From assembly GCF_030684315.1 (NCBI RefSeq), contig NC_081387.1, positions 6,304,497 through 6,368,496 on the forward strand: DNA of 64,000 bases. The letters are read 5' to 3'. A program made the position numbers and the translations under genes. Shown here in pieces: positions 12,001 through 61,980 of this stretch. The notes under the pieces are model-generated. The model had not been told where the DNA came from, did no database searches, and was given only the letters and a program-made list of their open reading frames with translations. Every line of letters starts with the position of its first letter. Position 1 is the stretch's first letter. This DNA comes from Stegostoma tigrinum (Eukaryota).

Positions 12001-15000
12001 GACACTGTTAAAACCCACCAGACTAAATTCACTCCTATCCTGATCCTGCCTCACCCTCCCAGACAGTGTAAAAACCCACCAGACTAAATTCACTCCCTTC
12101 CTGACCCAGTCTCACCCTCCCGGACACTGTTAAAACCCAACAGACTAAATTCACTTCCCCCCTGATCCTGCCTCACCCTCCCGGACACTATTAAAACCCA
12201 CCAGACGAAATTCACTCCCTTCCTGACCCAGTCCCTCCCTCCCGGACACTGTTAAAACCCAACAGACTAAATTCACTCCCTTCCTGACCCAGTCTCACCC
12301 TCCCAGACACTGTTAAAACCCACCAGACTAAATTCACTCCTATCCTGATCCTGCCTCACCCTCCCAGACACTGTTAAAACCCACCAGACTAAATTCACTC
12401 CCTTCCTGACCCAGTCTCACCCTCCCAGACACTGTTAAAACCCACCAGACTAAATTCACTCCTATCCTGATCCTGCCTCACCCTCCCAGACACTGTTAAA
12501 ACCCACCAGACTAAATTCACTCCCTTCCTGACCCAGTCTCACCCTCCCGGACACTGTTAAAACCCAACAGACTAAATTCACTCCCTTCCTGATCCTGCCT
12601 CACCCTCCCAGATGCAGTTAAAACCCACCATTCTAAATTCACTCCCTTCCTGATCCTGCCTCACCCTCCCAGACACTGTTTAAACCCACCAGACTAAATT
12701 CACTCCCTTCCTGACCCTGTCTCACCTTCCCGTACACTGTTAAAACCCACCAGACCAATTCACTCCCTTCCTGACCCTGTCTCACCCTCCCAGACACTGT
12801 TAAAACCCACCAGACTAAATTCACTCCTATCCTGATCCTGCCTCACCCTCCCGGACACTGTTAAAACCCACCAGACTAAATTCACTCCCTTCCTGACCCA
12901 GTCTCACCCTCCCAGACACTGTTAAAACCCACCAGACTAAATTCACTCCCTTCCTGACCCAGTCTCACCCTCCCGGATACTGTTAAAACCCACCAGACCA
13001 ATTCACTCCCTTCCTGACCCTGTCTCACCCTCCCAGACACTGTTAAAACCCACCAGACTAAATTCACTCCTATCCTGATCCTGCCTCACCCTCCCAGATG
13101 CAGTTAAAACCCCCCAGACTAAATTCACTCCCTTCCTGACCCAGTCTCACCCTCCCGGACACTGTTAAAACCCACCAGACCAATTCACTCCCTTCCTGAC
13201 CCTGTCTCACCCTCCCAGACACTGTTAAAACCCACCAGACTGAATTCACTCCTATCCTGATTCTGCCTCACCCTCCCAGACACTGTTAAAACCCACCAGA
13301 CTAAATTCACTCCCTTCCTGACCCAGTCTCACCCTCCCAGACACTGTTAAAACCCACCAGACTAAATTCACTCCTATCCTGATCCTGCCTCACCCTCCCA
13401 GACACTGTTAAAACCGACCAGACTAAATTCACTCCCTTCCTGACCCAGTCTCACCCTCCCGGACACTGTTAAAACCCAACAGACTAAATTCACTTCCCCC
13501 CTGATCCTGCCTCACCCTCCCGGACACTATTAAAACCCACCAGACGAAATTCACTCCAATCCATACCCTGCCTCACCCTCCTAGGCACTTGTAAAGCCCA
13601 CCAGACTAAATTCACTCCCTTCCTGACCCAGTCTCACCCTCCCAGACACTATTAATACCCACCAGACTAAATTCACTCCTATCCTGATCCTGCCTCACCC
13701 TCCCAGACACTGTTAAAACCCACCAGACTAAATTCACTCCCTTCCTGACACAGTCTCACCCTCCCAGACACTGTTAAAACCCAGCAGACTAAATTCACTC
13801 CTATCCTGATCCTGCCTCATCCTCCCAGACACTGTTAAAACCCACCAGACTTAATTCACTCCCTTCCTGACCCAGTCTCACCCTCCCGGACACTGTTAAA
13901 ACCCACCAGACTAACTTCACTCCCCCCCTGATCCTGCCTCACCCTCCCGGACACTGTTAAAACCCACCAGACTAAATTCACTCCCATCCATACCCTGCCA
14001 CACCCTCCCAGGCACTGTTAAAACCCACCAGACTAAATTCACTCCCTTCCTGACCCAGTCTCACCCTCCCAGACACTGTTTAAACCCAGCAGACTAAATT
14101 CACTCCTATCCTGATCCTGCCTCACCCTCCCAGACACTGTTAAAACCCACCAGACTAAATTCACTCCCTTCCTGACCCAGTCAAACCCTCCCGGACACTG
14201 TTAAAACCCACCAGACTAAATTCACTCCTATCCTGATCCTGCCTCACCCTCCCAGATGCAGTTAAAACCCACCAGACTAAATTCACTCCCTTCCTGACCC
14301 AGTCAAACCCTCCCAGACACTGTTAAAACCCACCAGACTAAATTCACTCCTATCCTGATCCTGCCTCACCCTCCCAGACACTGTTAAAACCCACCAGACT
14401 AAATTCACTCCCTTCCTGACGCAGTCTCACCCTCCCAGACACTTTTAAAACCCAGCAGACTAAATTCACTCCTATCCTGATCCTGTCTAACCCTCCCAGA
14501 CACTGTTAAAACCCACCAGACTAAATTCACTCCCTTCCTGACCCAGTCTCACCCTCCCGGACACTGTTAAAACCCACGAGACAAATTCACCCCCTTCCTG
14601 ACCCTGTCTCACCCTCCCGGACACTGTTAAAACCCACCAGACTAAATTCACTCCCTTCCTGACCCAGTCTCACCCTCCCAGACACTGTTTAAACCCACCA
14701 GACTAAATTCACTCCCTTCCTGATCCTGCCTCACCCTCCCAGACACTGTTTAAACCCACCAGACTAAATTCACTCCCTTCCTGACCCAGTCTCACCCTCC
14801 CGGACACTGTTAAAACCCACCAGACTAACTTCACTCCCCCCCTGATCCTGCCTCACCCTCCCGGACACTGTTAAAACCCACCAGACTAAATTCACTCCCA
14901 TCCATACCCTGCCTCACCCTCCCAGGCACTGTTGAAACCCACCAGACTAAGTTCACTCCCTTCCTGAACCAGTCTCACCCTCCCAGACACTGTTTTAACC

Positions 15001-16328
15001 CACCAGACTAAATTCACTCCTATCCAGATCCTGCCTCACCCTCCCAGACACTGTTAAAACCCACCAGACTAAATTCACTCCTATCCTGATCCTGCCTCAC
15101 CCTCCCAGATGCAGTTAAAACCCACCAGACAAAATTCACTCCCTTCCTGACCCTGTCTCACCCTCCCGGACACTGTTAAAACCCACCAGACTAAATTCAC
15201 TCCCTTCCTGACCCAGTCTCACCCTCCCAGACACTGTTAAAACCCACCAGACTAAATTCACTTCCTTCCTGACCCAGTCAAACCCTCCGGGACACTGTTA
15301 AAACCCACCAGACTAAATTCACTCCTATCCTGATCCTGCCTCACCCTCCCAGATGCAGTTAAAACCCACCAGACTAAATTCACTCCCTTCCTGACCCAGT
15401 CAAACCCTCCCAGACACTGTTCAAACCCACCAGACTAAATTCACTCCTATCCTGATCCTGCCTCACCCTCCCAGATGCAGTTAAAACCCACCAGACTAAA
15501 TTCACTCCCTTCCTGACCCAGTCAAACCCTCCCAGACACTGTTAAAACCCACCAGACTAAATTCACTCCCTTCCTGACCCAGTCAAACCCTCCCGGACAC
15601 TGTTAAAACCCACCAGACTAAATTCACTCCTATCCTGATCCTGCCTCACCCTCCCTGATGCAGTTAAAACCCACCAGACTAAATTCACTCCCTTCCTGAC
15701 CCTGTCTCACCCTCCCGGACACTGTTAAAACCCACCAGACTAAATTCACTCCCTTCCTGACCCAGTCTCACCCTCCCAGACACTGTTAGAACCCACCAGA
15801 CTAAATTCACTCCCTTCCTGACCCAGTCAAACCCTCCGGGACACTGTTAAAACCCACCAGACTAAATTCACTCCTATCCTGATCCTGCCTCACCCTCCCA
15901 GATGCAGTTAAAACCCATCAGACTAAATTCACTCCCTTCCTGACCCTGTCTCACCCTCCCGGACACTGTTAAATCCCACCAGACTAAATTCACTCCTAAC
16001 CTGATCCTGCCTCACCCTCCCAAATGCAGTTAAAACCCACCAGACTACATTCACTCCCTTCCTGACCCTCTCTCACCCTTCCGGACACTTTTAAAACCCA
16101 CCAGACTAAATTCACTCCCTTCCTGACCCAGTCTCACCCTCCCGGACACTGTTAAAACCCACCAGACCAATTCACTCCCTTCCTGACCCTGTCTCACCCT
16201 CCCAGACTCTGTTAAAACCCACCAGACTAAAGTCACTCCCTTCCTGACCCTGTCTCACCCTCCCGGACAGTGTTTAAACCCACCAGACTAAATTCACTCC
16301 CTTCCATCCCCTGCCTCACCCTCCTAGA
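1..16328 (+). repeat. 61-bp tandem satellite array (~267 monomers; begins upstream of the window)
   Basis: Consensus CACTCCCTTCCTGACCCAGTCTCACCCTCCCAGACACTGTTAAAACCCACCAGACTAAATT (61 nt) repeats continuously. Main variants are ...CCCTTCCTGACCCAGTCTCA and ...CCTATCCTGATCCTGCCTCA. The array ends at ~16328. Confidence 0.99.
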
Positions 16329-16495
16329 AACTTCATTGTCGATGTTTCCTTCTGACAGGTACTGCCCTTCGACTCATCGGCTGGGGTTGTTGCTTTGGGG
16401 TCAATGTCATGAGCCAAGGTGTTGTCTCACTTCGCCAGGTCTCATTTCAACACCTTCAGCTCTTGTCACACCCTCTGCCCACTACTCCACCATAT

Positions 16496-29040: not shown

Positions 29041-29452
29041 GGGCAGATCCCGGGCCTCAGGGGCCTGATGCTGCCAGCTTCACCCCCACCACCACCTGGT
29101 AAAAAATATCCCAGTCGGTGTGTGTTCGCTGCCCCCGAGGGAAACATTCCCATCAGTTTTTGTATCTCAGACTCAACCAGAACCTTCAGGCGGTTCAATC
29201 TCACGGGGACTGGTGATGGTCAGCCCTTCCTCGTTTTTAACTGCGGAGTTTTCTTTCTGAGACAAACCAACCAGTCACTCCCACTCCGAGTCATTAGGAA
29301 AGGATCCAACTTCAGTCCAACGGTCAAAGCGACATCTTGCAATTCTGTTTTGTTTTATTTTCCCCAGCCCCCAAACTATGATTATTTCTCCCTTCCCAGG
29401 AATATTTAATTCCCAGGGCTTGATTGGAATACAGACAGTGGACTGTGCCAGA

Positions 29453-29504
29453 ATGTTGATGACCCTTTTCTCCATCTCCCTGTGTTTTTCCTCGGTCTCT
29501 CCCG
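29453..29504 (+). CDS. Gene A leader exon
   Basis: MLMTLFSISLCFSSVSP-G|gtaagt: hydrophobic signal peptide with a phase-1 consensus donor, in frame with alpha1. Confidence 0.82.
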
Positions 29505-32500
29505 GTAAGTACAGAATTTAGCATTCCCTTCTCTCTCCCTCTCTCTCTCTCTCTCTGTCTCTGGGGTGAATGTGAATCTCTTGGTGAGAGTTTGAAATGG
29601 GGGACAGTTCACCAGCCGCCTGTAATACAGCCAGCCTGATATTTTACACATTGAAAGCAGCCCAGTCTGGGAGACTCTGATGGGATTTGTGTCCAGGTCT
29701 CCCGACAGCAGGATATAGAAACCGTGAGATCAGGGAAGCTCAGAGCAAATGGGAAATAATCCTAAAGGACAATTTTAATTTTCACAACAATTGGGAGCAG
29801 CTAAACATCTTCACCACTTCTGGTCAAAATTTTGTAAAGACGGTGGGGAGGAGAAGGATACTCCATGGTTAATCCACCCCAGGCTCAGCTGTGATGCCTT
29901 CCTGGCAGAATAGGTCCGATTATCTCAGACAGCAGCATCCTACTGGTCATGTATAAAGGGCTGATTAAAAAGCTCAGCGAAGGACAGCGAGGGTCCTGCT
30001 CTGCATTGTCCATCCCCCCTGTTTGACAGAGAGACTGTTCACACAGTGACTGTCCCTCCTGGCCTCTCACTTCATCCTCCCAAATATTCCTGTCTCTCCT
30101 CATTTTAATCTGGATTCACTCACTGCACATCGTTCCCGGTTGTGCTGATAAATCACAGATCAGACTTTCGTTTCGCAAAATTTTTCACTGCAACTCTATA
30201 CATGAGACAGTAATAAAGAAAATCAAAAATCACTCCAGATGTTCCCTGGTCAGGAGAGGTTCCCCAATGTCTCTCCAGATGTTCTCTTTTTTGAGATTAG
30301 TGATAGACTGGGTGTTTCCCAGGGTACTGTTCCAGATTATTGATTGACCCCAGACTTGTGACGGACCATATTTATGAAAGTTGCAATTAAATATAAGCGA
30401 AAGGCCAAATTGTACTGAATGTTTCTGGCTGGGCTTGCTTTTATTGCTCATCCTGAGGGAGAATCATAGAATCACACAGTACACAAGAGGCACTTTAATC
30501 CATCAAGCCTGTCCTGCCAAAAATACACTAAATCTACATTAGTCCAACTCCCCAGTGTTCAGCCCATAACCACAAATGTGCTCAGGAAGGACTCTTACAA
30601 AGACTTTTTCAAAGGTTGTGAAGCTTCCCACTTCAACTACCCTCCCAGGCAGTTTGTTCCAGCCCCCTCTGGGTGTAAAAGGCCTTTCTTCAAATCCCCT
30701 CTAAACCTCCTGCCTCTCGCATTAAAATTTTACCCTCTTGGAAAGGAACACTTGCCCTTGAAAAGGTGGTGATGAGCTGTCTTCCTGAACAAATAAAGTC
30801 CTTTCGTGTTTAGGTACACCCATGGTGCTGGATGTCAGGGACGTCCAGTATTATGAAGGAATAGCAATTATATTTCATAATAACTGGCCTGGAAGGGCTA
30901 GTTCAGGGTGTGTGTTCCCATGCATCTGTTGCTGTTGGTCTCCTGGATGGTAGTTATCACAGGATGGGAAGGTGCTGTCAGTGGGGTCCTGTTGAGTTGC
31001 TGCAGTGCATTTTGTAGATGACCAACACACTGTTTCAGCAGTTTGTACCGTGTCAAGCGAGAATGCTGTAGACATGGGATGTGGGAAGAATTAAGCAGGT
31101 TGTTTGTGGTGAGTTACTGCAGAATTCCCAACATCTGGCCTGCTCTTACAGCCACATCGTACATGTGGTTCATCCACTTCAGGTTGAGGATGACTGTCCC
31201 CCCAGGAAGTTGATCCTGAGGGTTTCAGTAATGATAACACCATTCAATATCAAAGGGAGGTAGGTGAGAATGAAACTACTTCAGTTGGTCAGTAGATGAC
31301 ACATGTCTCTGAGGAATAGCAAACAATGCTGAACATTTGCAATGATCAGCAAACATCCCCATTTCTGACCTTATAATGGAGGGGAAAATCATTGATGAAG
31401 CACTTGTATTTGGTTGAGCTTGGGAAGGTACCCTGTTGAACCCCTGTTGTGATGTTCTGGAGCTGAGATGCTTGGCCTGCACTAGCTACAACCATCTTTC
31501 TATATGCCAGGTCTGACTCCAACCAGCAGAAAGCTTTCCCCCCGATTGCCATTGACTGCACTTTTGCTGGACTCCTTAATGGCACACTCAGTTAAAGGAA
31601 GCCTCGATGTCCAGGGTGTTCCTTTCACCTCAGGTCTGAGATTCAGCTGTTTATCCATGTTTGAACTAAGTCTGGACTGAGGTCAGTGGCTCTGGTGTAA
31701 CCCATTACAGGATGTCAGTGAGCAGGTTATCGCTGAGCAGTTGCTGCTTAATAGCACTATCAATAACCCCCACTGTTACTTGATCGATGATTGAGAGTTC
31801 GACTGATGGGGCGGTTAATTGGCCAAGTTGGATTTGTCCCTTTTTTTGTGTGCAGGTCATATCCAGGCAGTTTTCCCATTGTTGGGTAGATGCCAGTGTT
31901 GCAGCTGTACTGCTGCAAATTTGTTTGGGGTGAGGAAATTTCTGGAGCACAAGTCTTCAGCAGTTTTGCAGGAATGTTGTCGGGCCCCATCGCCTTTGCA
32001 GTGACCAGGATCTCCAGTTGTTTCTTGATATTAAATGGACCCACTCAATTCGGCTGAAGACTGACATCTGAGATGTTGGTTATCTCTGGGGGAAGCCAAA
32101 AATGTATCACCTGCCCAGTGCTTTTGGCTGGGGATTATTGAAAATGCTTCAGCCTCATCCTTCTGCACTGATGTGCTGGGCTGGTCCATCAGTGAGGAGG
32201 GGGCTATTTGTGGAGTCACCTCCTGCAGTGAGTTGCAGTGAATTCCAGCTTTTCACCAAAACCTGGCAGTCCTTATCGATGGCATTGGTGAGAGTGACTT
32301 CTCTGTTACCCCTCTCTCCGGCATCCTCAAAGCCAACTGAAGATGCAACCCCAATCTCACAGGCCTTTCTGCAGCTCTGTGAATGTTCCTCGCCATTCAG
32401 GGGCATCACATTCCTCCAGAAATGGAGATCTGAGCACAGCCCATGAGATTTTGGTCACCCAGATCAAGTTGTTGTACATATTCGAGATGAATGTGGTCTC

Positions 32501-35500
32501 AGGAAATTTGGGCAGGAGTGACAATAATTCAGATAAAACGCTCTGCTGTGACTTGGCTTAAACCTGTAAAGATGCTATCTGTCACATACAAGGTGGAGAA
32601 CAGATGCTGCAACATCTAATTCAGACCCAGACAATGAATTTGATTCAAACAGGATCCTGACAGTCTGATTACGTGGTGCACTATTGGAGATTGCCACAGA
32701 CAGGATGGGAATTCACTTTGATCAGATGGTATCTGTGTAAATGTTTGTTAACCCCTTCTTTTCATTGATATTAGCAGGCTCTGACTCACTGACTGTGATC
32801 TACTCGGCAGTCTATGGCATTAAGGACTTTCCTGAGGTGACTAATATTGCAATGGTCAATGGAATTCAACTCAATTATCATGACACTAATATCCGTCGGG
32901 TGATCCCCAGGCAGCAGTTCATGGAGGATTATTTTGATTCAAAATACTGGGAATATCTCACCGGTCTCGGGAATACACGATCAGACATGGCAAAGGAGAA
33001 TCTGAATGCAATAATGAAAAATACAAACCAGACATCTGGTAAGATCAGTGATATGGGATTTCTGCAGGATCATGTTGACTGTCGGGTAGGTGGTGACCCT
33101 CTGGATTCTGCATCAGACAGTAGTAGGTACAAAGCCCAACCCAGGGCATATAGACAACAACTAAAGTGAACATGACAGTCAGTCTTCACAGCTGTTGAAG
33201 TTGCTGTCTATCAGGTAAAAGGCTGAACTGTGTCTCTATCAGCTGTGTGTAGAAAACCCTGGAGAAGAGCAGGGAAGTTATCCCCAACACCCTGGTCAAT
33301 GCGAAACTTCAGTTAGCGTCTTTTGAAATGCCAGTTACCGATTATTTGATCATTAATTGTTTGCAGTTTATCAGAGCATATCTGGGGCAAAAATTCTCCC
33401 TCATTTCCTCCTTTAAACTGTTACTAAAATTAATAAACTGTATTGCACTTCAGCCTGTCCTGAGATCAAGAACTTGCTTTTTAAATGCATGTCTTAATTA
33501 ATTCTTTTTCTTGTCAATGAATGACAGGCAGGTACTTACCCTGCATCACGCTTTATCCCGTGACAGTTGAGTGTGTCGCATGTAGCACAATATGAATGAA
33601 AGACATGAGGAAATTTACTTTCAGAGATAACAGGAACTGCAGATGCTGGAGAATCTGGGATAACAAGGTGTAAAGCTGGATGAACACAGCAGGCCAAGCA
33701 CTGTCAGAGGAGCAGGAAAGCTGACGTTTTGGGAAGGGTCTAGGCCCGAAATGTCAGCTTTCCTGCTCCTCTGATGCTGCTTGGCCTGCTGTGTTCATCC
33801 AGCTCTACACTGTGTTATCTACGAAAGTTACTTTGTTTTGTTTAGCTGTTTTGAATGGGATATTTATAAGGCCATGTCACTTTCTTGAAAATAAAGAGGT
33901 GGTTTGTGAGAAATGAGTGAGAATCCAATGAGATGGTTGTTATCCTCCAGGACTGAGCAATTCCTGTTACCTAATTGCAATGACTACTCATATCCAAGGG
34001 GGAGATTGATCTTCTGCAGTATTGCAGAGCAGACAATGTGAAACCAGGAGACAGTGCAAAAGGAGAATGGAAATCTCTGCAGGAAATAATCTGAGAGATA
34101 GGAAGTGGAGATGATCAAGGACAGGCAGTCCCTCCACTTTTTTAACGATCAAACAGAATTAACATTTCAGGTCCGGTGACCCTTCCTCAGAACTGAGTAA
34201 GTTCTGACAAGGGTCACTGGACCCAAATCTTTAACTCTGTTTGTTTCTGCGTAGTTGCAGCCAAACCTGTGGAGCTTTTCCTGATTTACAGCATCTGCAG
34301 GTCTTTCAGTTTTTGCTCCATTTTTAATTAGTTCAAGTGATTTGGGCATCACTGGCATGACCAGTGTTTATTTCCCACTCCTTTAGACTGGCACGGTGGC
34401 TCAGTAGTTAGCAGTGCTGTCGCACAGCGCCAGGGACCCTGGTTTGATTCCATGTTTGTGTGACAGTTTGTGTGGAGTTTGTATGTTCTCCCCCTGTCTG
34501 TGTGTGTTTCCCCTGGGAGCCCTGGTTTCCTCCCACAGTCCAAAAATGTGCAGGGTGGGTGGATTGGCCGTGCTAAATTGCCCGTAGTGTTCAGTGCTGT
34601 GTGGATTAGATCGTTGGTAGGCGGTGGGTCTGGGTGGGATGCTGTGAGTTTTGATGTGGACTTGTTGGGCCGAAGGTCCTATTTCCACACTAGGGATTCT
34701 ACGATACCTCGTTGCCTCTGAAGTGAATTACTTGCTGGGCCATTTCGGAAGGTGGTTAATAATAAGCTACATTGATATAGACCTGGAGTCACCTGTAAGT
34801 CAGACCGCATTTCCTTCCCTAAACAAAAGACATGAAACGAGTGGGATGTTATGACAATCAGCGACAGATTTGTATCCATCATCAGGAAGATTAGTTTTGT
34901 AGTCAGGCTGGTAACGATTGAATTTAAAATCTCCTGGCTGTGTAGTTTGTGCCTATATTGACAGATGATTCACCTCGACCTCTGGAATAGTGAAGGGGCA
35001 AAGTTGCCTCAGTCTCAGAGCAATGCTTTCTCACTGGAGACAGAGAGAGAACTGGTGATGAGTTTAAACTGAGGGTCAACACACCTGGCAAAGGGGAAGG
35101 TTGAGATGGAAAGCCCTTAATGGTAATCTCAGCTAGTGTGGGAATTGGACCCCTAACTCTCGGTTTCACACTGCAGCAAAAACCAGCAGTTCAGCCAACT
35201 GAGCTATCTGATCCCCACTGGGCACAGGCATTGTCTGACGATTGTAGTTTTGTGACGAATGTATCAGTAGGGAGTAAATTGCCAGGTATGAACGTGACTG
35301 ACCCTGTGTATACATGGCAAAGAAGTCAATGTTCCTGATGGCAAATAACTGTATTGACTTGCATTGAAACTGATAATCATGCATGTTCGACTCGATCAAT
35401 CTCCTAGTGCCAGCCCCTGCATCACTTCATTCAGTCCAGCCCGTGGGTCACTCCACTCAGTCCATTCCCAGCACCAACTCCTGCATCACTCCACACAGTC

Positions 35501-38500
35501 CATCCCCTCGCACCAACCCCTGAGTCAATCTACACAGTCCATTCCCAAGCACCAACTCCTGCATCACTCCACACAGTCCATCCCCTCGCACCAACCCGAG
35601 TCAATCTACACAGTCCATCCCCTCGCACCAACTCCTGCATCATTCTACACAGTCCATTCCCGAGCACCAACCCCTGCATCACTCTACACAGTCCATTCCC
35701 CAGCACCAACTCCTGCATCACACCACAAAGCCCATCCCCTCACACCAACCGCTGCGTTGCTCCACAAAGTCCATCCCCTCACACCAATCCCTGGGTCACT
35801 CCTCACAGTCCATCCTCTAGCACGAACTCCTGCGTCACTCCACTCTGTCCATCTCCCGACGCTGACCCCTGATATCAGACACTACTGAAATATAGTCTCC
35901 AAGTTCTATTAGGTGATAGCTTCCCTTCTGATCAGTTGTAGGATTTTGCAAAAAAACTTAATATTAATTCTGGTTTGATCACTGGCAGGAATTCACACAT
36001 TTCAATGGATAGCAACTGTTGAAATCGCTGATGATAACTCTGTGAAGAGATCGATGAGATTTGGATTTGATGGAAAGGATTTCCTGAGCTTAGAGCCAGA
36101 CAGATTTAGGTGGATTGCAACCAATCAAAATGCAGTGAAGACGAAAGAGAAATGGAATTCTGATGATTCCTGGAACAAGTATTGGGAAATGCATCTGAAG
36201 CAAGGGTTTGTCCAGGATTTAAAGAGAACCTTGCAAGCTGGAAAGCAGTATTTCGAAAGGAAAGGTATATATTTCAGTTGTGATCCCAAGTTCTATTTTA
36301 ACTTTACTGATCAAACAAACCATAATCCTATTCCACTCGGTGTCTGTCTATTGTTTGTGTTCTCACCCTTTCCCATCACAGCTCAGCCTGAAGTGTTCAT
36401 CTCCAGGAGTGAGCCCAATCGTCAGGACAAGCCACTCACTCTCTCCTGCCGAGTCACTGGATTTTATCCTGTAGACATCGAGGTGACCTGGCTAAGGAAT
36501 GGAGAGGTTGTGTCTGAGACACAATCCTCGGGGATTCGACCGAACCATGATGGGACCCATCAGATCCAGAAAGAGATTGAAATCAGTGCTGGGGATGAGG
36601 ATCAATATTCCTGCCAAATTGAACACAGCAGCATGACAGAGGCCAAGCTCTACCAGTGGGGTAAGGAGCTGGATTGTGTGTGTGTCAGTGTCTGTCTGTA
36701 CTTCTGGCTTGTTACTGTTCACGTTGATGTGGCTTTAAGAATTCCAGTTATTTGACACAGCGCCAGTGAAGGAACGCCAGTGTATTTCCAAGTAAAGCTA
36801 ATGAGTGGCTTGGAGTGAAACTGGCATCTGGTGGAATTTCCGTATATCTACTGCCCTTGTCCTTCTCAATGGGAGTGATTGTAGGTCTGTAAGGGACTGT
36901 GTGAGGAGGCTTGGTGATTTTCAGCAGTGCATCTTGTAGATAGTTCACACTGCTGTTGTTGAGTGTCAGTGGTGGAGAGAGTGGATGGGTTGCTTTCTCC
37001 TGGACGGTGCCAAGCTGCTTGAGTGTTGTTGGAGCTGCAGCCATTCAGGCAAGTCGGGAGTATTCCCTGACCTGTATGTGCCCCGTAGATGATGGACAGA
37101 CTTTGGGAGTCAGAAAATGAGTTACTCACCTCAAGTATTCCTGGCCTCTGATCTGCTCTTGCAGCCACTGTGATGATGTGGCAAGTCCAGTTCAATTTCT
37201 GATTGATGGTAACCCGAAGGATGTTCACATTGGGGGATTCGGTGATGGTAACACCATTAAATTTTCTGAATTTTGATGACCAGATTGTTTCTTGTTGGAG
37301 ATGGTCATTTGCCTGGCACTTGTGTGATGCAAATGTTATTTGCCACTTGTCAGCCCGCGCCTTTGTTGTATTTGAACATGGACTGCGTCAGTATTTGGGG
37401 AATGATGAGTGGTGCTGAATATAGTGTAATCATTGGCAAACATCCCATTAATAATCTGGTGCAGAAAAGGTTGTTGATAAAGCAGCTGAAGATGGTTTGA
37501 CCTGGAACACGACCTTGAGGACCTCTTGCAGAGATGTCCTGGAGCTAAGATAATTAATTCCAACAAGCACAACCAGCTTCCGATGTGCCAGGAATGCCTC
37601 TAACTAGTGGACAGTTTGCTCCTGCTACCCATTGATGCCAGTTGTGCCAGGGTTTCTTGATGCCACACTCAGTGAAACACAGCCTTGGTGTCAAGGGCTG
37701 TCACTCTCGCCTCACCGCGGGATTTCAACTCTTTTGTCCATGCTGGAACGAAGACTGTAATGAGGTCAGGAGCTGAGTGGCCCTGGTGGACCTTAAGTTG
37801 GGTGTTGCTGAGCAGATGCTGCTTGATAGCCCTATCGATGACACCTTGTATGACTTCAGAATAGATCGAGAGTAGACCGATGGAGCAATAATTGGCCAGG
37901 TTGGATTTCTCCTGCTTTTCATGTACAGGACAAACCCGGGAAAATTTCCATGCTGTTGGGTAGAGGCTAGTAGCTTTGGAACACCAGTATTCTGCACTGT
38001 GGCCAAATGCTGTCAAGATTCAAGTCCTTTGCAGTATCCAGTGGCTCCAACCATTTCTTGACATTGCATGCAGGGAATTGAATTGGTTCAAGACGAGTAT
38101 CTGTGCTGGGTACCCCTGGAGGAGATGTTGTGGTGTTATCACCAGGCTGTTAATACAGAGACTGTATAAAGGTCTCGCGACCTCAGTTTGAATCCCACTG
38201 TGGCAGAGGCAGAAGTTGAATTCAGTTAAAATTTGGCATTGTTTGTATAATGATGACGCTGAAACCATTGTCAATACTCATTTTTAAAAAATCCATTCCA
38301 TTTATTAACTCCCTTTACAGAAGGAGACCAGCTGTTCCTGCTGCCAAGTGTCTCCATCACACTCCATTCGCAGTGTGAGTGACTTTCAACTGCTCTGCAG
38401 GCAATTAGTTTTGGTCAAAATGCCAAGCCAGCCAGTCACACTTGCAGTTAGTGTTTACACAATTGATTGAGACTTCAATAGAGAAGGATTGATCACTTTG

Positions 38501-41500: not shown

Positions 41501-44085
41501 TTCCAGCAATGGCACTGAAGCCTTATTCCTTAACCATACCCTTCCAGTACAGTTACGACTTTGATGTCTAGTGGGACAGTGTGGAAAATTGCCCAGGTAC
41601 GTTATGGAGAAAAAAAAGTAGGAAAAATCCAACCTGGCCAATTACCACCCGAACAGTCAACTCTCGATCATCAGTAAAGTGATGGAAGGTGTCATGAAGA
41701 GTGCTATCCAGCAGCACTTGCTCAGCAATAACCTGCTCAGTATTGACTAGTTTGGGTTCCATGAGGGCCACTCAGCTCCTGACCTCACTACAGCCTTCGT
41801 TCAAACAGTGACAAAAGAGCTCAACTCCAGAGGTAAGGTGATAGCGACAGCCCTTGACAGCGATTCTGCATTTGACTGAGTGTGCATCAAGGAGGCCAGG
41901 CAAAACTGGAATCAATGGGCACAGAGGACAAACTCTCCCCTGGATAGAGTTATACATGGCACATAGTACAGTGTTGTTCTTGCTGGAGGTCAGTCAGCTC
42001 AGCTCCAGGACTTCTCTGCAGGAATTCCTCAGGACATTTTCCCAGGAGCAACCATCTTCAACTACTTCATCATTTAGCTTCCCTCTATCATCTGATCAGG
42101 AGTGGGAAATTTTGCCAATGATTGCAGAGTGTTCAGCTCCACACATGACTTCTCTAAGTTCAAATGCAACAAGATCTGCACAATACCCAGGCTGAGGCTG
42201 ACAAGTAAACTTCGTGCCACACAAATGCCAGGTAGTGTTCATCTCCAATAACAAACCATTTAACCATCGCCCATTGATATTCAATGGTGTTGCCATCACA
42301 GAATCCTCCACTACCAACATCTTTGAGGTTACCTTTGACCAGAAACCCAAACACATAAACACCACGGCTACAAGACCAATTCAAATGCGAGGAATACAGC
42401 AGTCAGTAACTCATTTCCTGACTCCCCAAAGCCCATCCACCATCGACAAGGTACAGGCCAGGAATGTAACAAATATTCCCATTTGCCATGATGGGTGCAG
42501 CTCCAATAACAAGAAGCTTTTCAACATCCAGGACAAAGTGGCCAGCCTGATTGGCACTGTATTCACAAGCATCCACTCCCTCCACCACTGACGCTCAGTA
42601 GCAGAAGTGTGTACTGTCTACAAGTAATTCAAAGATTCTTAGCGAGCACCTTCCAAGATCTTACATCTAGAAGGACAAGGGCAGCAGATATGTGGAAACA
42701 GACGCACCTCCAAGCTCCCTGCCAAACCACTTCCCATCCGGACTTAGAAATATTTCATTGATCGTCCACTGTCATTGGGTCAAAATCCTGGGATTTCCTC
42801 TCCAATGACATTGTGGGTCCACCCAGAGAGTGTGGACTGCAGTGGTTTATGAAGGCAGCTTACCACCAACTTCTCAAGGGCATCTAGTGCCGGGAAATAA
42901 GATACTAGCATGCCAGCAATACAAATGAATTTAAAAACTTCATGATAATCATGGCGTTATAAAATTCACTACATTTAACCTCTCCTAATCTCTCAAAGAC
43001 AGGAAAATGTTCCAACTTGTTTTTCTCAGGTTTAACAGGAATGATCTCACATTTCCCCACATTGGATAAAAACATAATGGTTGGAATTCGCTCATTTCAT
43101 CTGTCAATGTCCTTTCATTCTTCCTCCTAACTAATGTCATCGGAAAACATGGATATAAACCCACAGACCGGACAACTCAGTATTTACACTCCCGTTAATG
43201 GGATCTTTAGTGACTTCACTGGAGAGTGAAATTGACTGAAGGTCAACACAAAATTTTAACCAATTGCATCATTTCCCAGTGGGTGGGGTCAGTTAATATT
43301 GTTCCCATGAATACAGAACTGGGAACAGAAAAGTTTCTGATGTTTTTCCAATGTGTTTCAGAAACCACAGGAAACAGAGGGGAACGCATCCATCTTGGAA
43401 TGATACTTGGAATCCTTATTGCTGCAGTGTTCGGGATAATCGCAATGATCATTTGGATAAGGGCATGGAAAGGTAAGGATCATTGAGGAAGGGATGTGGA
43501 ACTGCATGGAGAGAGTGTGTAGGGAATCTCCAGCACTGGGAGGGAGGAGTGAGAGAATATCAGACTGATATTAACAAATTAACTTGTGCTCTCACTCTGA
43601 GAATTGATTATTCTAATGGACGTTTATTTTGTTTCTGCACGTGCATCAAGTGTGACAAATACACCAGTTTGCAGGAAGCAACTAAGGGGACAGAGTGTTG
43701 GGGAGTGGTGGATAAGGGATTGGGGAAAGCTGTCGAGTTACATTGTCCAGGTGTGATTCAGGGTGACACTTGTCTCCTCACTCTGTAGTCTCTCACCCCC
43801 CAGTTCTCTTATGCCCCCTCTTCCTCATCTTCATACCCCCAGGCCCACTCCCTCCAATCATCAACTGCTCAAATCCCTTATATCCCAATTCCTCTTTTCA
43901 GTTCTGCGCCCCTGTTCCCTCCCCCTTCTTCCCTCTGCGCTGTGCTGGTTAGCTGTTGCCAAGGGTGATTGAACCCGGATCTGGTAATTGATAGAGAATA
44001 TCTCACACTGTCACATTTGATATTTAATTTCTCATGCTATGTTTCTCCATCAGCTTCTGATGTCTCTGTTCCAGCTCATTCATGA
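29453..44085 (+). CDS. Gene A: nonclassical MHC class I heavy chain (shark; possibly UEA/UCA-like). join(29453..29504,32778..33038,35989..36264,36382..36660,43362..43472,44054..44085), ~336 aa
   Basis: Six exons with GT-AG borders and all introns phase 1. The spliced CDS of 1011 nt is open. Domain order is leader-alpha1-alpha2-alpha3(Ig C1)-TM-tail. The lineage name is inference. Confidence 0.9.
29529..29562. repeat. (CT)n microsatellite in gene A intron 1
   Basis: ttctctctccctctctctctctctctctgtctct. Confidence 0.85.
30460..30750 (-). mobile_element. CR1 LINE 3' end fragment
   Basis: Begins gaatcatagaatc (reverse-complement tail), followed by the RT C-terminal region. Confidence 0.7.
30750..32420 (-). 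mobile_element. Old LINE (CR1/L2 superfamily) RT region
   Basis: AKAMGPDNIPAKLLKTCAPE, GVQQG and MGMFADHC in minus-strand ORF fragments. Confidence 0.85.
32778..33038 (+). CDS. Gene A alpha1 exon (261 nt)
   Basis: ttagcag|GSDSLTVIYSAVYGIKDFPEV...IPRQQFM...KYWE...NQTSG|gtaag, with the conserved N86 glycosylation sequon NQT. Confidence 0.95.
33622..33820. mobile_element. Fold-back Penelope-derived mini-element with ~14-bp TSD
   Basis: Inverted arms (gctggatgaacacagcaggccaagca...gcaggaaagctgac / gtcagctttcctgc...tgcttggcctgctgtgttcatccagc). TSD aggaaatttacttt / acgaaagttacttt. Confidence 0.82.
34147..34316. mobile_element. Fold-back Penelope-derived mini-element
   Basis: ttaacatttcaggtccggtgacccttcctcagaac is followed by its inverted copy gttctgacaagggtcactggaccc. 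Flanks are ctccacttttttaa and ctccatttttaa. Confidence 0.7.
34390..34705 (+). mobile_element. HE1-like V-SINE (elasmobranch tRNA-derived SINE)
   Basis: A box tggctcagtagttag, B box ggtttgattcc, V-domain gtgtggagtttgtatgttctcccc...ggtttcctcccacagtccaaa, and a CR1-like tail. Confidence 0.85.
34995..35222 (-). mobile_element. tRNA-derived SINE
   Basis: Reverse-complement head ggggatcagatagctcagttggc ... ggtccaattccc (A and B box-like). Confidence 0.6.
35430..35870 (+). repeat. 39-bp minisatellite (~11 copies) in gene A intron 2
   Basis: Unit cagtccattcccaagcaccaactcctgcatcactccaca; it produces the 13-aa periodicity in spurious ORF 35364-35888. Confidence 0.92.
35989..36264 (+). CDS. Gene A alpha2 exon (276 nt)
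   Basis: ggcag|GIHTFQWIATVE...FGFDGKDFLSL...WIA...AVKTKEKWN...HLKQGFVQDLKRTLQAGKQYFERK-G|gtatat. Confidence 0.96.
36382..36660 (+). CDS. Gene A alpha3 (Ig C1) exon (279 nt)
   Basis: cacag|AQPEV...LSCRVTGFYPVDIEVTWLRNG...PNHDGTHQ...YSCQIEHSS...W-G|gtaag. Confidence 0.97.
36750..38125 (-). mobile_element. Old LINE (CR1/L2 superfamily), same family as 30750-32420
   Basis: WKFSRVCPVHEKQEKSNLANYCSIGLLS, ALDTKAVFH and MFANDYT in minus-strand fragments. Confidence 0.85.
38480..39545 (+). mobile_element. Degenerate CR1 RT C-terminal part and 3'UTR
   Basis: SPQLEYCV, RFTKMLSG, LEQRRLR and RFKVRG motifs. Confidence 0.8.
39612..40022 (-). mobile_element. PLE 3' region fragment with a degenerate hammerhead core
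   Basis: Reverse complement gttctgaggaacgggacaccagaccccaaaatgttcac, followed by the pLTR tail seen in the other PLE copies. Confidence 0.6.
40283..40455 (+). mobile_element. tRNA-derived SINE fragment (related copy at ~38130-38400)
   Basis: gggaggtgatggtctgatggtattatc...gttcgaatcccactgtggcaga...gaatttgaaatcaat. Confidence 0.6.
40530..42920 (+). mobile_element. Old LINE (CR1/L2 superfamily), endonuclease through 3'UTR
   Basis: Endonuclease remnants (..GYFNVH.., ILD, SDHC) and RT remnants (KSNLANY, GHSAPDL). Homologous to the minus-strand copies at 30.7 and 36.7 kb. Confidence 0.85.
43362..43472 (+). CDS. Gene A connecting peptide / transmembrane exon (111 nt)
   Basis: tttcag|ETTGNRGERIHLGMILGILIAAVFGIIAMIIWIRAWK-G|gtaag. 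Confidence 0.92.
43641..43673 (+). pseudogene. Dead 33-nt cytoplasmic exon of gene A (both splice sites mutated)
   Basis: tttctgcaC|...tttgca|gGaagc versus the intact paralog exon tttctgcaG|...ctcgca|gtaagt in copy C. The downstream intron sequence is also homologous. Confidence 0.75.
44054..44085 (+). CDS. Gene A last coding exon
   Basis: catcag|(A)SDVSVPAHS*; the same 32-nt exon is present in B (52566-52597) and C (61981-62012). Confidence 0.85.
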
Positions 44086-44143
44086 TTCAGTAAGTGATGT
44101 TTTATTCTCCCTCCATTGATGTACTTGTAACCAAACTACTCTG

Positions 44144-44213
44144 TCCTGGACCCTGTCTCACTCTCCCAGACACGGTTAAAACCTTTCGGACTAATTTCAC
44201 TCCAATCCTGACC
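44144..44213 (+). repeat. Solitary 61-bp satellite monomer just after the gene A stop codon
   Basis: tcctggaccctgtctcactctcccagacacggttaaaacctttcggactaatttcactccaatcctgacc. Confidence 0.88.
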
Positions 44214-44289
44214 GTGAAGAGACTAATTATCTTACCTCATGGGTACCTTGGGCTCTGCTACAGAATATTCCTTCCCAAATAGGAGGTGG

Positions 44290-51037: not shown

Positions 51038-51550
51038 CTGCTCGGTCCTCCAGCCCACTGGCTCTCCCTACTCCATGTGATCCTCCAGCCCACTGGGTCT
51101 ACCTGCTCTGTGTGATACTCCAGCCCACTGGCTCTCTCTGCTCTGTGTGATCCTCCAGCCCACTGGCTCTCTCTGCTCTGTGTGATCCTCCATCCCACTG
51201 GCTCTCTCTGCTCTGTGTGATCCTCCAGCTCACTGACTCTCTCTGCTCTGTGTGATCCTCCAGCCCACTGGCTCTCCCTGCTCTGTATGATCCTCCAGCC
51301 CAATGGCTCTCTCTGCTCTGTATGATCCTCCATCCCACTGGCTCTTCCTGCTCTGTATGATCCTCCTGTCCACTGGCTCTCTCTGCTCTGTGTGATCCTC
51401 CAGCCCACTGGTTCTACCTGCTCTGTATGATCCTCCAGCCCACTGGCTCTCCCTGCTCCTTGTGATCCTCCAACCCATTGGCTCTCCCTGCTCCGTGTGA
51501 TCCTCCAGCCCACTGGCTCTCCCTGGTCCATTTGATCCTCCAGCCCACTT
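51038..51550 (+). repeat. 35-bp minisatellite (~15 copies) upstream of the pseudogene B alpha2 exon
   Basis: Unit tgctctgtgtgatcctccagcccactggctctctc. Confidence 0.95.
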
Positions 51551-51869: not shown

Positions 51870-52597
51870 GCATTCACACATTCCAATGGATACAGACTGT
51901 TGAGTTTCTTGAAGAAGATTCTAATCAGAAAAGTTCTGTTAAGAGATCAATGCAAGTTGGATTTGATGGAAAGGACTTCTTTAGTTTAGAACTAGGCAAA
52001 ATGAGAAGGGTCGCAGCAAATCATCACGCAGTGGAGGTAAGAGTGAAATGGAATTCTGATCAAGCTTGGAACAACTTTTGGAAAACCACCTTGAAGAAGC
52101 ATTTGTTCAATACTTAAACAGTAATCTGGAACCAAGAAAGGAATATTTATTTCAGTTTTGATCCCAAATTCTGGTCAAACTTCACTGATTTTGTGAAATT
52201 GCTCTCCAATTCAGTGTCTGGCTATTGTTTGAGTTTTCACCCTTTCCCATCACAGTTCAGCCTGAAGTGTTCATCTCCAGGAGTGAGACAGTAAGTGACT
52301 GAGGGGACAGATTGTTGGGAATGATACAGAAGGAAATGGAATGTGTAAGAGTTACATTCTCGTTGGAGTAATTTCACAATGTTTATGTGGGACATTCACC
52401 CTGCATACCCTCTGCCTCCATTCCCTCTATATGGTGCTATGCGAGTCTCTTTAATTAAGGCTGAGTGTTGATTGAACGCTGGGCCCTGAGAGTGATAGAA
52501 AACATCTCACACGCTCTGTTTTTACATTTTATCACATTTCTGACAATCTGCTTTTACATTCTCAGCTTCTGAAGTCTCTGTTCCAGCTCCTTCATGA
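51870..52597 (+). pseudogene. Copy B: MHC class I pseudogene (frameshifted alpha2, alpha3 stub fused to the cytoplasmic-exon donor, last exon)
   Basis: cacag|GIHTFQWIQTVEF...GFDGKDFFSL...KWNSDQAWN, then a 1-nt frameshift at ~52085 and a deleted alpha2 donor. alpha3 (52256-) VQPEVFISRSE joins directly to aca|gtaagt. Last exon SEVSVPAPS* at 52566-52597. No alpha1 exon was found upstream. Confidence 0.92.
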
Positions 52598-60299: not shown

Positions 60300-61857
60300 A
60301 AACTAACCTTCCAGCTCAGCGAGCAAACTCACATCCAGAACCTTGAAGGTGTAACATGGGGACAGGAGTAACAGTGCCATGTCATCTGCCCTCCCACCCC
60401 AGGTGCTCACCATCCTGTTCGTCTGGATGTCACTCCCCTTCCCCCTTCAGCTCAGTTACCGCCTCACTTCCCTCTGTGATCCAGGGCTCAGTGCCTGCTC
60501 CATATCCCTGTTCAATCTCTCGGTGGCTGACAGTAACCTCCACACCCTGCACCCCACCACCACCTCCAGCCAGTGTATCTAAAGACAACAACACCTGTCA
60601 GAGGAAAACATTGACAATGAAGGTGCCTCTTCATCTGTCACATCCCAGAGGCCCGTGGCTCAACCCTGGTTGAAACATTCAGCTGGTGATCCTGGCCTTT
60701 CCTCACTCCAATCCCGGCTTGATCACCAGTCAGTGATGTATTCCTGATTCCCAGCAACTCCCTGGCCCTCTGTTCACACTCATTCAGATCCTTCAGAAAG
60801 GACACTCCACCCCCAGGGAATGAACACTCCCAGACATTATCAATCATTGAACTCTGAACGACATTAAATGAACATCACTTTGTGCTTCCTGGTTGGTTTG
60901 GGGAAAGATGTTGCACAGTTGAATGGTCTTAACTGCCCAAGTTCACATTAAATTGAAGTTCAATAACTGCTGATTCTGAGAGCCACAAACTGCCAAGTGA
61001 ATGAATTAACAGTTCTTGTGAAATCATAAATGAAGAATTCAAATAAAGCAATGACCATCAATAATTTGTTGATGGGCAATCACAATTGAAGTCTGCAGTT
61101 AAACATTGATGATAAATAGGAGCAAAATTTAGCTACCATAAATGCATTACTATGAAGAACTAAAATAAAGACACTTTATATCAGAGTTCAATTTGGGTCA
61201 CATTGGTTACTTAACAGGCAAAACACATCAGCTCAGCTTAATATATCTTTGAATACAAATAGAGAGTAACAGATAAATAGTGAAAGTTTTTGTCAACATA
61301 AAAAAAGGCAATTTAAAAACTTTCTATAAATATTTACATAAGAGTTCAAATTCAGTGACAAAATGCAAAATCTATCCATTGCCTCCAATATAAAAACTGT
61401 CTCTAAGTTACCTGAAGACATTGCTCCATTTCAGGACAATCTTTGAGCCACTGAAGACAGCGGAGATGAGAAAGTGAGGGAGAAACCATCCATGAAGATC
61501 CCTCTGATGGTGACACTGCTCACATTTCTGAGACGGATGGAAGCAGGACTTGAGAAGATCTCGTTTGGAGAATCAGGATCTGAGCACACAGATCCAGGAT
61601 CCACCGTTCAATCTGTGGAAACACATTCCCAGGAAAAAGGGTATTCAATACCAGTCCTGAAAGAAATGGGTGTGAAGAAAGAGCTGTAACTCTGTGTCTC
61701 TGCTGTGCTATCGAAGGATGCACAATGATGTCCATTGTAACATTGGATTTTGAGAATCCCGTTATTCCTCGATGAGGATCCGTGAATCTCCTGCAATGGA
61801 GCTGAGGAAACCCATGAGGTAGAGAATAGACTGACACAAGGCAATCACTTCAGGGTG

Positions 61858-61925
61858 GGGATGGAGTGAAATCAGTCCGACAGGTTTTAAAAATGTCTGC
61901 GAGGGTGAGGCAGGGTCAGGAGGGA
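61858..61925 (-). repeat. Solitary satellite monomer just after the copy C stop codon
   Basis: Reverse complement tccctcctgaccctgcctcaccctcgcagacatttttaaaacctgtcggactgatttcactccatccc. Confidence 0.85.
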
Positions 61926-61980
61926 TGTAAAAATGTTACAAATAAGTCTACGGAGAGAAGTTGACATGCCACTTACTGAA

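What the first reader, a model, noticed from the sequence alone, without database searches (positions are those of the whole stretch)
32778..36264. Class I groove without the alpha2 disulfide, with asymmetric loss of peptide-anchoring residues
By manual alignment to HLA numbering, C101 is V (WIATVE) and C164 is F (KQGFVQD), so the near-invariant alpha2 disulfide is replaced by a hydrophobic pair. Pseudogene B has the same V and F, so this is a lineage trait rather than decay. N-terminus anchors are mostly lost (Y7V, Y159H, W167D, Y171T; Y59 kept). C-terminus anchors T143, K146 and W147 and F123 are kept (position 84 is N). The beta2m-contact residues Q96, D119, G120 and D122 and the N86 glycan are kept. 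This suggests a beta2m-associated nonclassical molecule binding N-terminally extended or modified peptides, or non-peptide ligands. It may belong to the described multigene shark UEA lineage, which I cannot confirm here.
Basis: partly seen in the sequence, partly recalled or inferred. Interest (0 to 1): 0.7.

Follow-up and report, generated by a model that had tools for sequence, protein, structure and literature searches.

The report
Shark UEA class I lacking disulfide
This is an intact, spliced shark immune-display gene (nonclassical MHC class I) that lacks a nearly universal disulfide bond in its binding groove, but its large shark-wide gene family lacks that bond too and is most likely the already described UEA family, so the gene is ordinary for that family; one end of its groove is likely open.

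Summary
In detail: V101, F164, V7, H159, D167 and T171, and no cysteine in alpha1-alpha2. The gene has six intact exons and one run holds a spliced contig. The loss is a family trait. Among 60 shark relatives C101, G100, Y7 and W167 occur 0 times, but F164 is in only 19, C164 survives in 5 and Y171 in 43. The family has 19 alpha2 copies in this genome, between brd2/beta2m and col11a2/slc39a7-like genes beside UDA: the published UDA/UEA cluster. Published nurse-shark and dogfish 'UCA' sequences already lack both cysteines. UEA membership is about 0.88; the UEA paper could not be read. Mechanism (inferred): the parts that close the groove's N-terminal end were lost together (1 of 10 kept) while the F pocket stayed (4 of 5), so a C-anchored ligand with an extended or acylated N-terminus is likely. 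beta2m pairing is model-supported (0.91 vs control 0.05), possibly from memory of solved complexes. This scan reported the same trait before on other DNA (24 findings, at least 9 genomes). Verdict: new member of a known kind.

The parts
29453..29504 (+). Leader (signal peptide) exon from the ATG that relatives share; database models start at an upstream in-frame ATG at 29378
   Evidence: GT donor
31511..31633 (+). In-frame 123-nt extra exon in 3 of 5 database isoform models (X1-X3); not in relatives, probably repeat-derived
   Evidence: repeat origin inferred from a weak similar stretch near 41900 (E 0.38)
32778..33038 (+). alpha1 exon: V7, A26, Y59, L63, N77, N84, N86 glycan sequon; no Cys
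   Evidence: Pfam MHC_I E 0.00039, below the curated cut-off on its own; AG/GT ends; positions
35989..36264 (+). alpha2 exon: T100, V101, F164, H159, D167, T171; keeps Q96, D119, G120, D122, F123, T143, K146, W147; has W97, M114, W133, W152, Y155, W156
   Evidence: Pfam MHC_I E 1.6e-14
36018..36020 (+). Codon 101, GTT (Val) in place of Cys
   Evidence: GTT in 12 of 13 family copies checked in this genome
36207..36209 (+). Codon 164, TTT (Phe) in place of Cys
36382..36660 (+). alpha3 exon, C1-set Ig domain with its cysteine pair
   Evidence: Pfam C1-set E 1.3e-17
43362..43472 (+). Connecting peptide and transmembrane exon
   Evidence: helix 326-352 in the model
44054..44085 (+). Last coding exon, short cytoplasmic tail and stop; no Tyr-motif (YTT) tail exon was found between the TM exon and this one
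51870..52287 (+). Pseudogene B: alpha2 exon with a 15-nt net insertion and a 1-nt deletion (frameshift), then only the first 31 nt of alpha3; no alpha1 found in the window

Best explanation
This is an intact, spliced shark nonclassical MHC class I heavy-chain gene, most likely of the published multigene UEA lineage, whose product is predicted to pair with beta2-microglobulin and likely holds its ligand by the C-terminal end in a retained F pocket while the N-terminal end of the groove is likely open. Shown: gene structure, splicing, residue losses, family size, synteny. Inferred: the disulfide was lost as part of a whole module. In class I, G100 kinks the strand, the C101-C164 bridge lifts the alpha2 helix, and W167 then blocks the groove end while Y7, G26, Y59, E63, Y159 and Y171 hold the peptide's free amino group (PMC8236899, sections 13 and 18). 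This gene keeps only Y59 of those ten. The likely ligand is a C-anchored peptide whose N-terminus overhangs (HLA-F-like) or carries an acyl group (chicken YF1-like); I slightly favour overhang, because the A/B-pocket walls include polar N24, N34, R70 and H159. Odds: UEA membership 0.88; beta2m-bound surface protein 0.85; C-anchored, N-open ligand 0.45.
For: Six exons with canonical internal splice sites join to 336 aa identical to database isoform X5 from its second Met. A 1282-nt contig in run X20 skips the GT..AG alpha2-alpha3 intron, matches alpha2 with 0 and alpha3 with 1 difference and carries alpha1 sequence upstream; the DNA-like run X17 does not show that joint. Family: 19 of 28 alpha2 matches in the own genome are this type, at C44 5.53-7.07 Mb. 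Order on C44: bromodomain gene 5.34 Mb, beta2m 5.449 Mb, cluster with UDA-like 6.41 Mb and UGA-like copies, COLFI 8.01 Mb, Zip 9.14 Mb, UBA-like 10.7-11.1 Mb; this matches the UDA/UEA cluster of PMC10751288 section 9. alpha2 tree: one clade of 73 of 82 rows (SH-aLRT 99, stem 0.88, quick search), apart from UAA/UBA/UDA/UGA-like rows; it includes two own-genome copies, one of which (L009) matches the published nurse-shark 'UCA_NODE_26056' row at 86 of 92 positions by eye. Module loss: Y7, G100, C101 and W167 each 0 of 60; G26 11, D/E/Q63 2, C164 5 of 60; G100 is in 113 of 131 outgroup domains that keep both Cys. F-pocket side: W147 60, K146 58, F/Y123 56, T143 47, N77 39 of 60. Complex with this genome's beta2m: 0.91, best of 3 controls 0.05; runs share at least 94% of contacts, partner pLDDT at least 91; the mark was reached by 51 of 78 solved and 2 of 108 mismatched microbial pairs, and by 71 of 105 solved and 2 of 126 unrelated eukaryote pairs. 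AlphaFold2 gives the class I fold, with block pLDDT 83-96 over alpha1-alpha2.
Against: No ligand evidence at all, and no model coordinates were available, so groove shape was not inspected. No sequence labelled 'UEA' was seen (0 occurrences in the supplement); reading the nurse-shark 'UCA' label as UEA is my inference. R84, a C-end anchor, is kept in only 13 of 60 and not here. Y171 and Y159 survive in 43 and 14 of 60, so the N-end loss is less complete in the family than in this gene. W97, M114, F116, W133, W147, W152, Y155 and W156 may fill the middle and C-terminal half of the groove, which would argue against a long peptide. W147 is also kept in 21 of 28 outgroup domains that lost two or more N-end anchors, so it may be structural. 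The beta2m pass concerns a textbook pair and may come from memory of solved complexes. Expression rests on contigs of one run not on record as RNA.
Confidence: 0.45

Rival explanations
1. Same gene and lineage, but it presents a fixed non-peptide ligand (small aromatic metabolite or short lipid) in an aromatic cage, as MR1 does; the F-pocket residues are kept for folding only.
For: M114, W133, W147, W152 and W156 are invariant (60 of 60) and W97 is in 45 of 60. Six orthologues from zebra shark to sawshark share 31 of 43 groove positions against 70 of 136 other positions (Fisher p 0.02, positions not independent), which suits one fixed ligand. R70 and H159 could bind an anionic group. MR1 chains rank with chicken class I in the fold search.
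Against: The groove is only moderately hydrophobic: mean Kyte-Doolittle 0.39 over 43 positions; alpha1 0.55 against 1.49 for the UFA-like copy, alpha2 0.21 against 1.53 for the UGA-like copy. It is therefore not CD1-like. K146 (58 of 60) and T143 (47 of 60) are better kept than folding alone needs: among 28 outgroup domains that lost two or more N-end anchors only 3 keep T143+K146+W147. The fold search does not separate MR1 from classical chains (TM-scores 0.49-0.52).
Confidence: 0.3
2. The groove is empty or nearly closed and the molecule is a ligand for NK-type or gamma-delta receptors (MIC-like); without the disulfide the helices can collapse together.
For: PMC8236899 section 13 notes that the G100-dependent geometry also differs in MIC-A. 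Bulky aromatic residues line the groove. The family is multicopy with fast turnover: 8 of the 19 alpha2 copies here have a stop or frameshift in alpha2 or alpha3 as read, and one more has a stop in alpha1.
Against: Groove-facing positions differ more between paralogues than other positions (49% against 62% identity to this gene) yet are conserved within the orthologue group, which suggests a used groove. Small residues (V7, A26, G67, A99, G163) leave room at the N end. beta2m contacts are kept.
Confidence: 0.18
3. It is a separate, undescribed shark lineage that merely sits in the UDA/UEA cluster.
For: No row labelled UEA was available for direct comparison, and the UEA paper could not be read. 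Seven literature searches found no statement that UEA lacks the alpha2 disulfide.
Against: It is the only multicopy family found between brd2/beta2m and col11a2/slc39a7, where PMC10751288 places multicopy UEA. A published nurse-shark query row falls inside the clade. All named hits are sharks, as recalled for UEA.
Confidence: 0.08
4. The cysteine loss is pseudogene decay or an alignment or assembly artefact.
For: Many cluster copies are broken, including the closest paralogue (stop in alpha1). In HLA-A2, mutating C101-C164 abolishes TAPBPR interaction (PMC6926029 passage).
Against: Open six-exon frame, spliced contig, V101 in 58 of 60 relatives from 11 shark species, dN/dS 0.33 in alpha2 among 28 paralogue pairs, gap-free alignment to solved chains.
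Confidence: 0.02

Closest known systems
Shark nonclassical class I lineage UEA (Almeida et al. 2021, J Immunol 207:824; seen only as a citation, content recalled; described in PMC10751288 section 9 and PMC12562908 passages)
   Same: Multicopy; in the MHC class Ib cluster with UDA between brd2/beta2m and col11a2/slc39a7; found only in sharks here; most peptide-anchoring residues lost; related to UCA.
   Different: No difference shown. Whether that paper reports the C101-C164 loss, or which of its three (recalled) sublineages this gene belongs to, could not be checked.
Spiny dogfish UCA (AF515705; alpha1-alpha3 rows seen in PMC10751288 supplementary file 10)
   Same: By eye: V101, no C164 (V), no G100, W97, W152, W156, no W167.
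   Different: Much more divergent; lacks T143, K146 and W147. It was not returned by my protein searches (motif check), so it is not in my trees.
HLA-F (PMC6525141 passages)
   Same: Works-like analogy: peptides anchored only at the C-terminus with the N-terminus protruding from an open-ended groove.
   Different: A primate gene, not an orthologue; recalled to keep the alpha2 disulfide, so it opens the end by other means.
Chicken MHC-Y YF1*7.1 (PMC12212280 abstract and passages)
   Same: Works-like analogy: multigene class Ib family, beta2m-bound, F' pocket (N75, F119, T139, W143) binds the peptide part, A' pocket holds an acyl chain; W at the 156-equivalent site.
   Different: Keeps both alpha2 cysteines, Y7 and G26; its A' pocket is apolar where this gene has N24, N34, R70 and H159.
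Classical shark class I UAA (PDB 6LUP; PMC8236899 sections 13 and 18)
   Same: Fold, domain lengths, beta2m contacts, N86 glycan, Q87, G175, F-pocket residues.
   Different: Keeps the whole P1-pocket module and the disulfide; this gene keeps 1 of 10.

Membership tests
MHC class I heavy chain | Leader, alpha1, alpha2, C1-set alpha3, TM and tail exons; class I fold | tested here: met
MHC class I heavy chain | beta2m-contact residues and beta2m pairing | tested here: met
   Q96 59, D119 58, G120 60, D122 60 of 60; model score 0.91 vs best control 0.05, textbook pair, may be from memory; binding itself not measured
Classical class Ia (UAA) | Conserved peptide-terminus anchors and the C101-C164 disulfide | tested here: not met
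   1 of 10 P1-module residues, no R84
Classical class Ia (UAA) | Groups with UAA in a tree | tested here: not met
   UAA-like rows lie outside the clade and at C44 1.1 and 1.7 Mb; TAP/PSMB linkage not examined
Shark UEA | Multicopy family | tested here: met
   19 of 28 alpha2 matches in the own genome; lower bound
Shark UEA | In the class Ib cluster with UDA, between brd2/beta2m and hsd17b8/rxrb/slc39a7/col11a2 | tested here: met
   brd2, col11a2 and slc39a7 identified by Pfam domain and position only; hsd17b8 and rxrb not searched; UDA label by eye
Shark UEA | Clusters with published UEA sequences | tested here: inconclusive
   No row labelled UEA seen. Own-genome orthologues of the nurse-shark row labelled 'UCA_NODE_26056' are in the clade; equating that row with UEA is inference
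Shark UEA | Lacks conservation of the peptide-terminus anchor residues (recalled from the 2021 abstract) | tested here: met
   Y7 0, Y59 24, R84 13, Y159 14, W167 0, Y171 43 of 60; T143, K146, W147 mostly kept
Shark UEA | Relatively hydrophobic groove (recalled) | tested here: inconclusive
   More hydrophobic than UDA-like and UAA/UAA-2-like copies, less than UFA-like alpha1 and UGA-like alpha2
Shark UEA | Present in sharks, absent from rays and chimaeras (recalled) | tested here: inconclusive
   All named family hits are sharks, 11 species; no ray or chimaera genome was searched directly
Shark UEA | Three sublineages with distinct grooves; weak, broad expression (recalled) | not testable with these tools
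   Paper not held; contigs give no expression level
Shark UDA / UBA / UGA / UFA | Lineage sequence and retained alpha2 cysteines | tested here: not met
   Their published rows keep both Cys; own-genome UDA-, UBA- and UGA-like copies lie outside the clade; UFA-like alpha2 was not retrieved

The most novel reading that the evidence does not exclude
This shark lineage dismantled, as one unit, the class-I-specific machinery that closes the N-terminal end of the groove (Y7, G26, E63, G100, C101-C164, W167), giving a beta2m-bound class I molecule with a class-II-like open end. The branch holding this gene (D/N at 167 in 5 of 6 orthologues, like the class II beta1 residue at that site; 31 of 43 groove positions fixed from zebra shark to sawshark) presents one conserved class of N-extended or N-acylated ligand to invariant lymphocytes, and this structural reading is not yet in print.
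Probability: 0.22. Interest if true: 0.62.

Novelty: new member of a known kind. Interest (0 to 1): 0.3.

Why it matters
The alpha2 disulfide is shared by class I and class II and is thought to be ancestral (PMC8236899 section 13), so an old, expanded, expressed family without it is a natural test of how the fold stays stable and what the bridge is for. The lineage is most likely already named, and the cysteine loss is visible in published sequences, so the gene is not a discovery. What remains useful is a testable reading: the disulfide went together with G100, W167, Y7 and G26, and the orthologue group of this gene has a conserved groove, which makes it a good candidate for the first ligand elution and structure of this family.

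Tried and rejected
Reading the UEA paper (PMC id, DOI, PubMed id) and the UDA paper: not held. Searches for a printed statement on the disulfide loss: none found (passages); the key paper is outside the library, so this is not evidence of novelty. RNA holders: no holder on record as RNA was listed; 16 small-share runs, of which 2 were laid and show relatives, not this gene. Compensating disulfide: rejected. This gene has no Cys in alpha1-alpha2, and the scattered family cysteines near positions 45, 71 and 164 are not shared by the family. 'V/F pair is the lineage signature': rejected, only V101 is. CD1-like lipid groove: rejected on hydrophobicity. Foldseek gave only generic class I and MR1 hits, with whole-chain rmsd 6-10 A, probably because alpha3 sits differently in the monomer model. 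No model coordinates were available. The careful alpha2 tree did not finish; the quick tree was used. Dogfish UCA was not retrieved by any protein search. One search used two exon ends off by one base; corrected. A look-up of earlier findings by sequence found nothing.
Full report
WHAT IS THERE. The finding covers the alpha1 (32778-33038) and alpha2 (35989-36264) exons of an MHC class I gene on the + strand. With the leader (29453-29504), alpha3 (36382-36660), TM (43362-43472) and tail (44054-44085) exons, all internal junctions are AG/GT and the joined frame gives 336 aa, identical to database isoform X5 (XP_059495521.1, labelled Stegostoma tigrinum) from its second Met. Pfam gives MHC_I for alpha1 and alpha2 and C1-set for alpha3. 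AlphaFold2 with a 60-row alignment gives the class I fold, block pLDDT 83-96 across alpha1-alpha2, with an unbroken first alpha2 strand; Foldseek returns class I and MR1 chains. One run (X20, kind not on record, no intron cover) holds a 1282-nt contig that joins alpha2 (0 differences) to alpha3 (1 difference) across the GT..AG intron, with alpha1 sequence before it; run X17, which covers the intron, lacks this joint (4 of 20 listed runs laid, on 851 bases). This shows a spliced form, not its level.

OBSERVATION. Every residue claim is right. HLA numbering was set by motif anchors and checked against HMMER alignments to solved chains; the numbering scheme and my list of 43 groove-facing positions are recalled, not from a call. 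There is no cysteine in alpha1-alpha2. Pseudogene B (51870-52287) has the same V and F codons, with a frameshift between them. As a control, 131 of 140 outgroup alpha2 domains keep both cysteines, 9 keep one and none loses both (189 domains aligned, 49 dropped for not covering both sites; family members excluded or partial).

THE FAMILY. The own genome gives 28 alpha2 matches, all on contig C44; 19 are of this type (54-100% identity), at 5.53-7.07 Mb, and alpha1 matches extend to 7.14 Mb. Protein searches return relatives from 11 shark species and no named ray, chimaera or bony vertebrate at this level. I aligned 60 of them, leaving out two double-length models, partial proteins and further isoforms. 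In these 60, position 101 is V 58, A 1, I 1; position 164 is F 19, L 19, S 6, C 5, other 11. The five C164 rows sit on three separate branches. So C101 loss is fixed and position 164 drifted once freed; the order is inferred.

WHICH LINEAGE. PMC10751288 (seen: passages, section 9, supplement parts 1, 97, 98 and searches) places single-copy UDA and multicopy UEA in one cluster between brd2/beta2m and hsd17b8/rxrb/slc39a7/col11a2, with UBA elsewhere. Here a bromodomain gene lies at 5.34 Mb, beta2m at 5.449 Mb, the family at 5.53-7.14 Mb with a UDA-like gene about 70 kb from this one, a COLFI gene at 8.01 Mb, a Zip gene at 9.14 Mb and UBA-like genes at 10.7-11.1 Mb. Lineage labels for own-genome copies were set by eye against that paper's labelled query rows. 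Of its 26 alpha2 rows, 23 have both cysteines; the three without are nurse-shark 'UCA_NODE_26056', dogfish UCA AF515705 and a ray 'UHA'. The nurse-shark row matches locus L009 at 86 of 92 positions by eye, and L008/L009 fall with this gene in a 73-row clade (SH-aLRT 99) apart from UAA-, UBA-, UDA- and UGA-like rows (quick search, 92 columns, 82 rows; five frameshifted or truncated copies and the duplicate of this gene left out). The supplement never uses the label UEA. I recall from the 2021 abstract that UCA proper is limited to dogfish sharks and that UEA is its multigene relative in other sharks, so I read this row as UEA. The 2021 paper itself was not available, so membership stays at about 0.88. 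PMC12562908 (passages) confirms that sharks have two expanded class Ib families, UBA and UEA.

HOW IT LIKELY WORKS. PMC8236899 (sections 13 and 18 read) explains how class I closes the N-terminal end of the groove: G100 breaks the regular strand, this lifts the C101-C164 bridge and the helix, W167 blocks the end, and Y7 (allowed in by G26), Y59, D/E/Q63, Y159 and Y171 bind the peptide's first residue. This gene has V7, A26, Y59, L63, T100, V101, H159, F164, D167, T171: 1 of 10. The family mean is 1.6 of 10, against 3.9 of 5 for R/Y84, F/Y123, T143, K146, W147 (57 of 60 rows had all positions). G100 is absent in all 60 but present in 113 of 131 outgroup domains that keep the bridge. Since class II beta1 shares the bridge and the gene keeps class-I-specific Q87, G175 and the beta2m contacts, the loss is secondary (inference). 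The modelled complex with this genome's beta2m scored 0.91 against a best control of 0.05, with at least 94% shared contacts and partner pLDDT at least 91; the mark was reached by 51 of 78 solved and 2 of 108 mismatched microbial pairs, and by 71 of 105 solved and 2 of 126 unrelated eukaryote pairs (my alignments were not used). It is a textbook pair, so the pass shows likeness, not binding. The simplest reading is a surface heterodimer that anchors a ligand's C-terminus in the F pocket and leaves the other end open, as HLA-F does with long peptides (PMC6525141 passages), or fills it with an acyl chain, as chicken YF1 does (PMC12212280 abstract and passages). I give this 0.45.

AGAINST THAT READING. 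R84 is mostly gone (13 of 60). Y171 mostly stays (43 of 60). W147 is common in other class I proteins that lost N-end anchors (21 of 28), though T143+K146+W147 together is not (3 of 28). The groove has a fixed aromatic set (M114, W133, W152, W156 in 60 of 60; W97 in 45) that could fill it or cage a small molecule. Hydrophobicity is moderate, below the UFA- and UGA-like copies. No coordinates were available to judge.

THE BRANCH OF THIS GENE. In an alpha1-alpha2 tree of the 60 proteins it groups with five orthologues from two bamboo/epaulette sharks, basking shark, white shark and sawshark (UFBoot 91), at 70-82% identity. They share 31 of 43 groove positions against 70 of 136 others (p 0.02, approximate), whereas paralogues differ more in the groove (49%) than outside it (62%). 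Each branch therefore seems to keep its own groove chemistry. alpha3 behaves the other way: 89-91% identical to three same-species paralogues but 79-88% to orthologues, with dS 0.185 against 0.70 for alpha2 over 28 paralogue pairs, which points to homogenisation of alpha3 within the cluster.

NOVELTY. The trait is real and unusual among class I proteins, but it marks a family that is most likely named and whose published relatives show it. Seven searches found no sentence stating the loss, but the key paper is outside the library. PMC4364491, PMC9586880 and PMC6926029 were seen as passages only; the 2003 dogfish UCA paper is recalled only. This scan has 24 earlier findings with the same words in at least 9 genomes, 8 of them shown, 2 in this genome; these are unchecked AI notes and not independent support, and my reading was fixed before I saw them. 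Verdict: new member of a known kind, interest 0.3.

Noticed in passing
window 36382-36660 and loci L002-L013: alpha3 exons look homogenised within the cluster: dS 0.185 against 0.70 (alpha2) and 0.90 (alpha1) among paralogues; alpha3 is closer to same-species paralogues (89-91%) than to orthologues (79-88%). Likely gene conversion.
   Followed up: partly
window 43473-44053: This gene lacks the short tail exon with the Tyr (YTT) motif that 29 of 60 relatives, including its bamboo-shark orthologues, carry; no remnant found. May change endocytic traffic.
   Followed up: partly
G000:C44:6220637-6224217 (L002, L030), minus strand: A recent inverted duplicate of this gene (alpha2 95% identical) about 116 kb away, with a stop codon in alpha1. 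UGA-like and pseudogene-B-like copies are also duplicated nearby.
   Followed up: partly
window 61845-62934, minus strand: 3' end (TM exon, Tyr-motif exon, tail) of the next family gene, whose alpha2 lies just outside the window (L005); its TM segment looks degenerate.
   Followed up: no
window 1-16332: 61-bp satellite array, about 267 copies, 86% matches, strongly C-rich on the + strand; a related stretch lies in the 3' region of this gene near 44140-44215.
   Followed up: no
window 35436-35857 and 51046-51549: 39-bp and 35-bp minisatellites just upstream of the alpha2 exons of this gene and of pseudogene B.
   Followed up: no
window 31511-31633: In-frame 123-nt exon in 3 of 5 database isoforms that would put 41 residues between leader and alpha1; probably an exonised repeat; no read support checked.
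   Followed up: no
L025, G000:C44:6718133-6718399: A divergent class I alpha2 exon with both cysteines that matches none of the labelled rows closely; long branch near UGA-like rows.
   Followed up: no
PMC10751288 supplementary file 10, row 'Pamandae_UHA': A ray class I-like row with no cysteine in alpha2, unlike this family in sequence: possibly a second, independent loss of the bridge.
   Followed up: no
L060:8711-8980 (G000:C44 about 5.449 Mb), minus strand: The beta2-microglobulin gene lies about 78 kb from the first gene of the cluster.
   Followed up: yes
window 36492: The spliced contig in run X20 differs by C>A here (Leu to Ile in alpha3), probably an allele.
   Followed up: no
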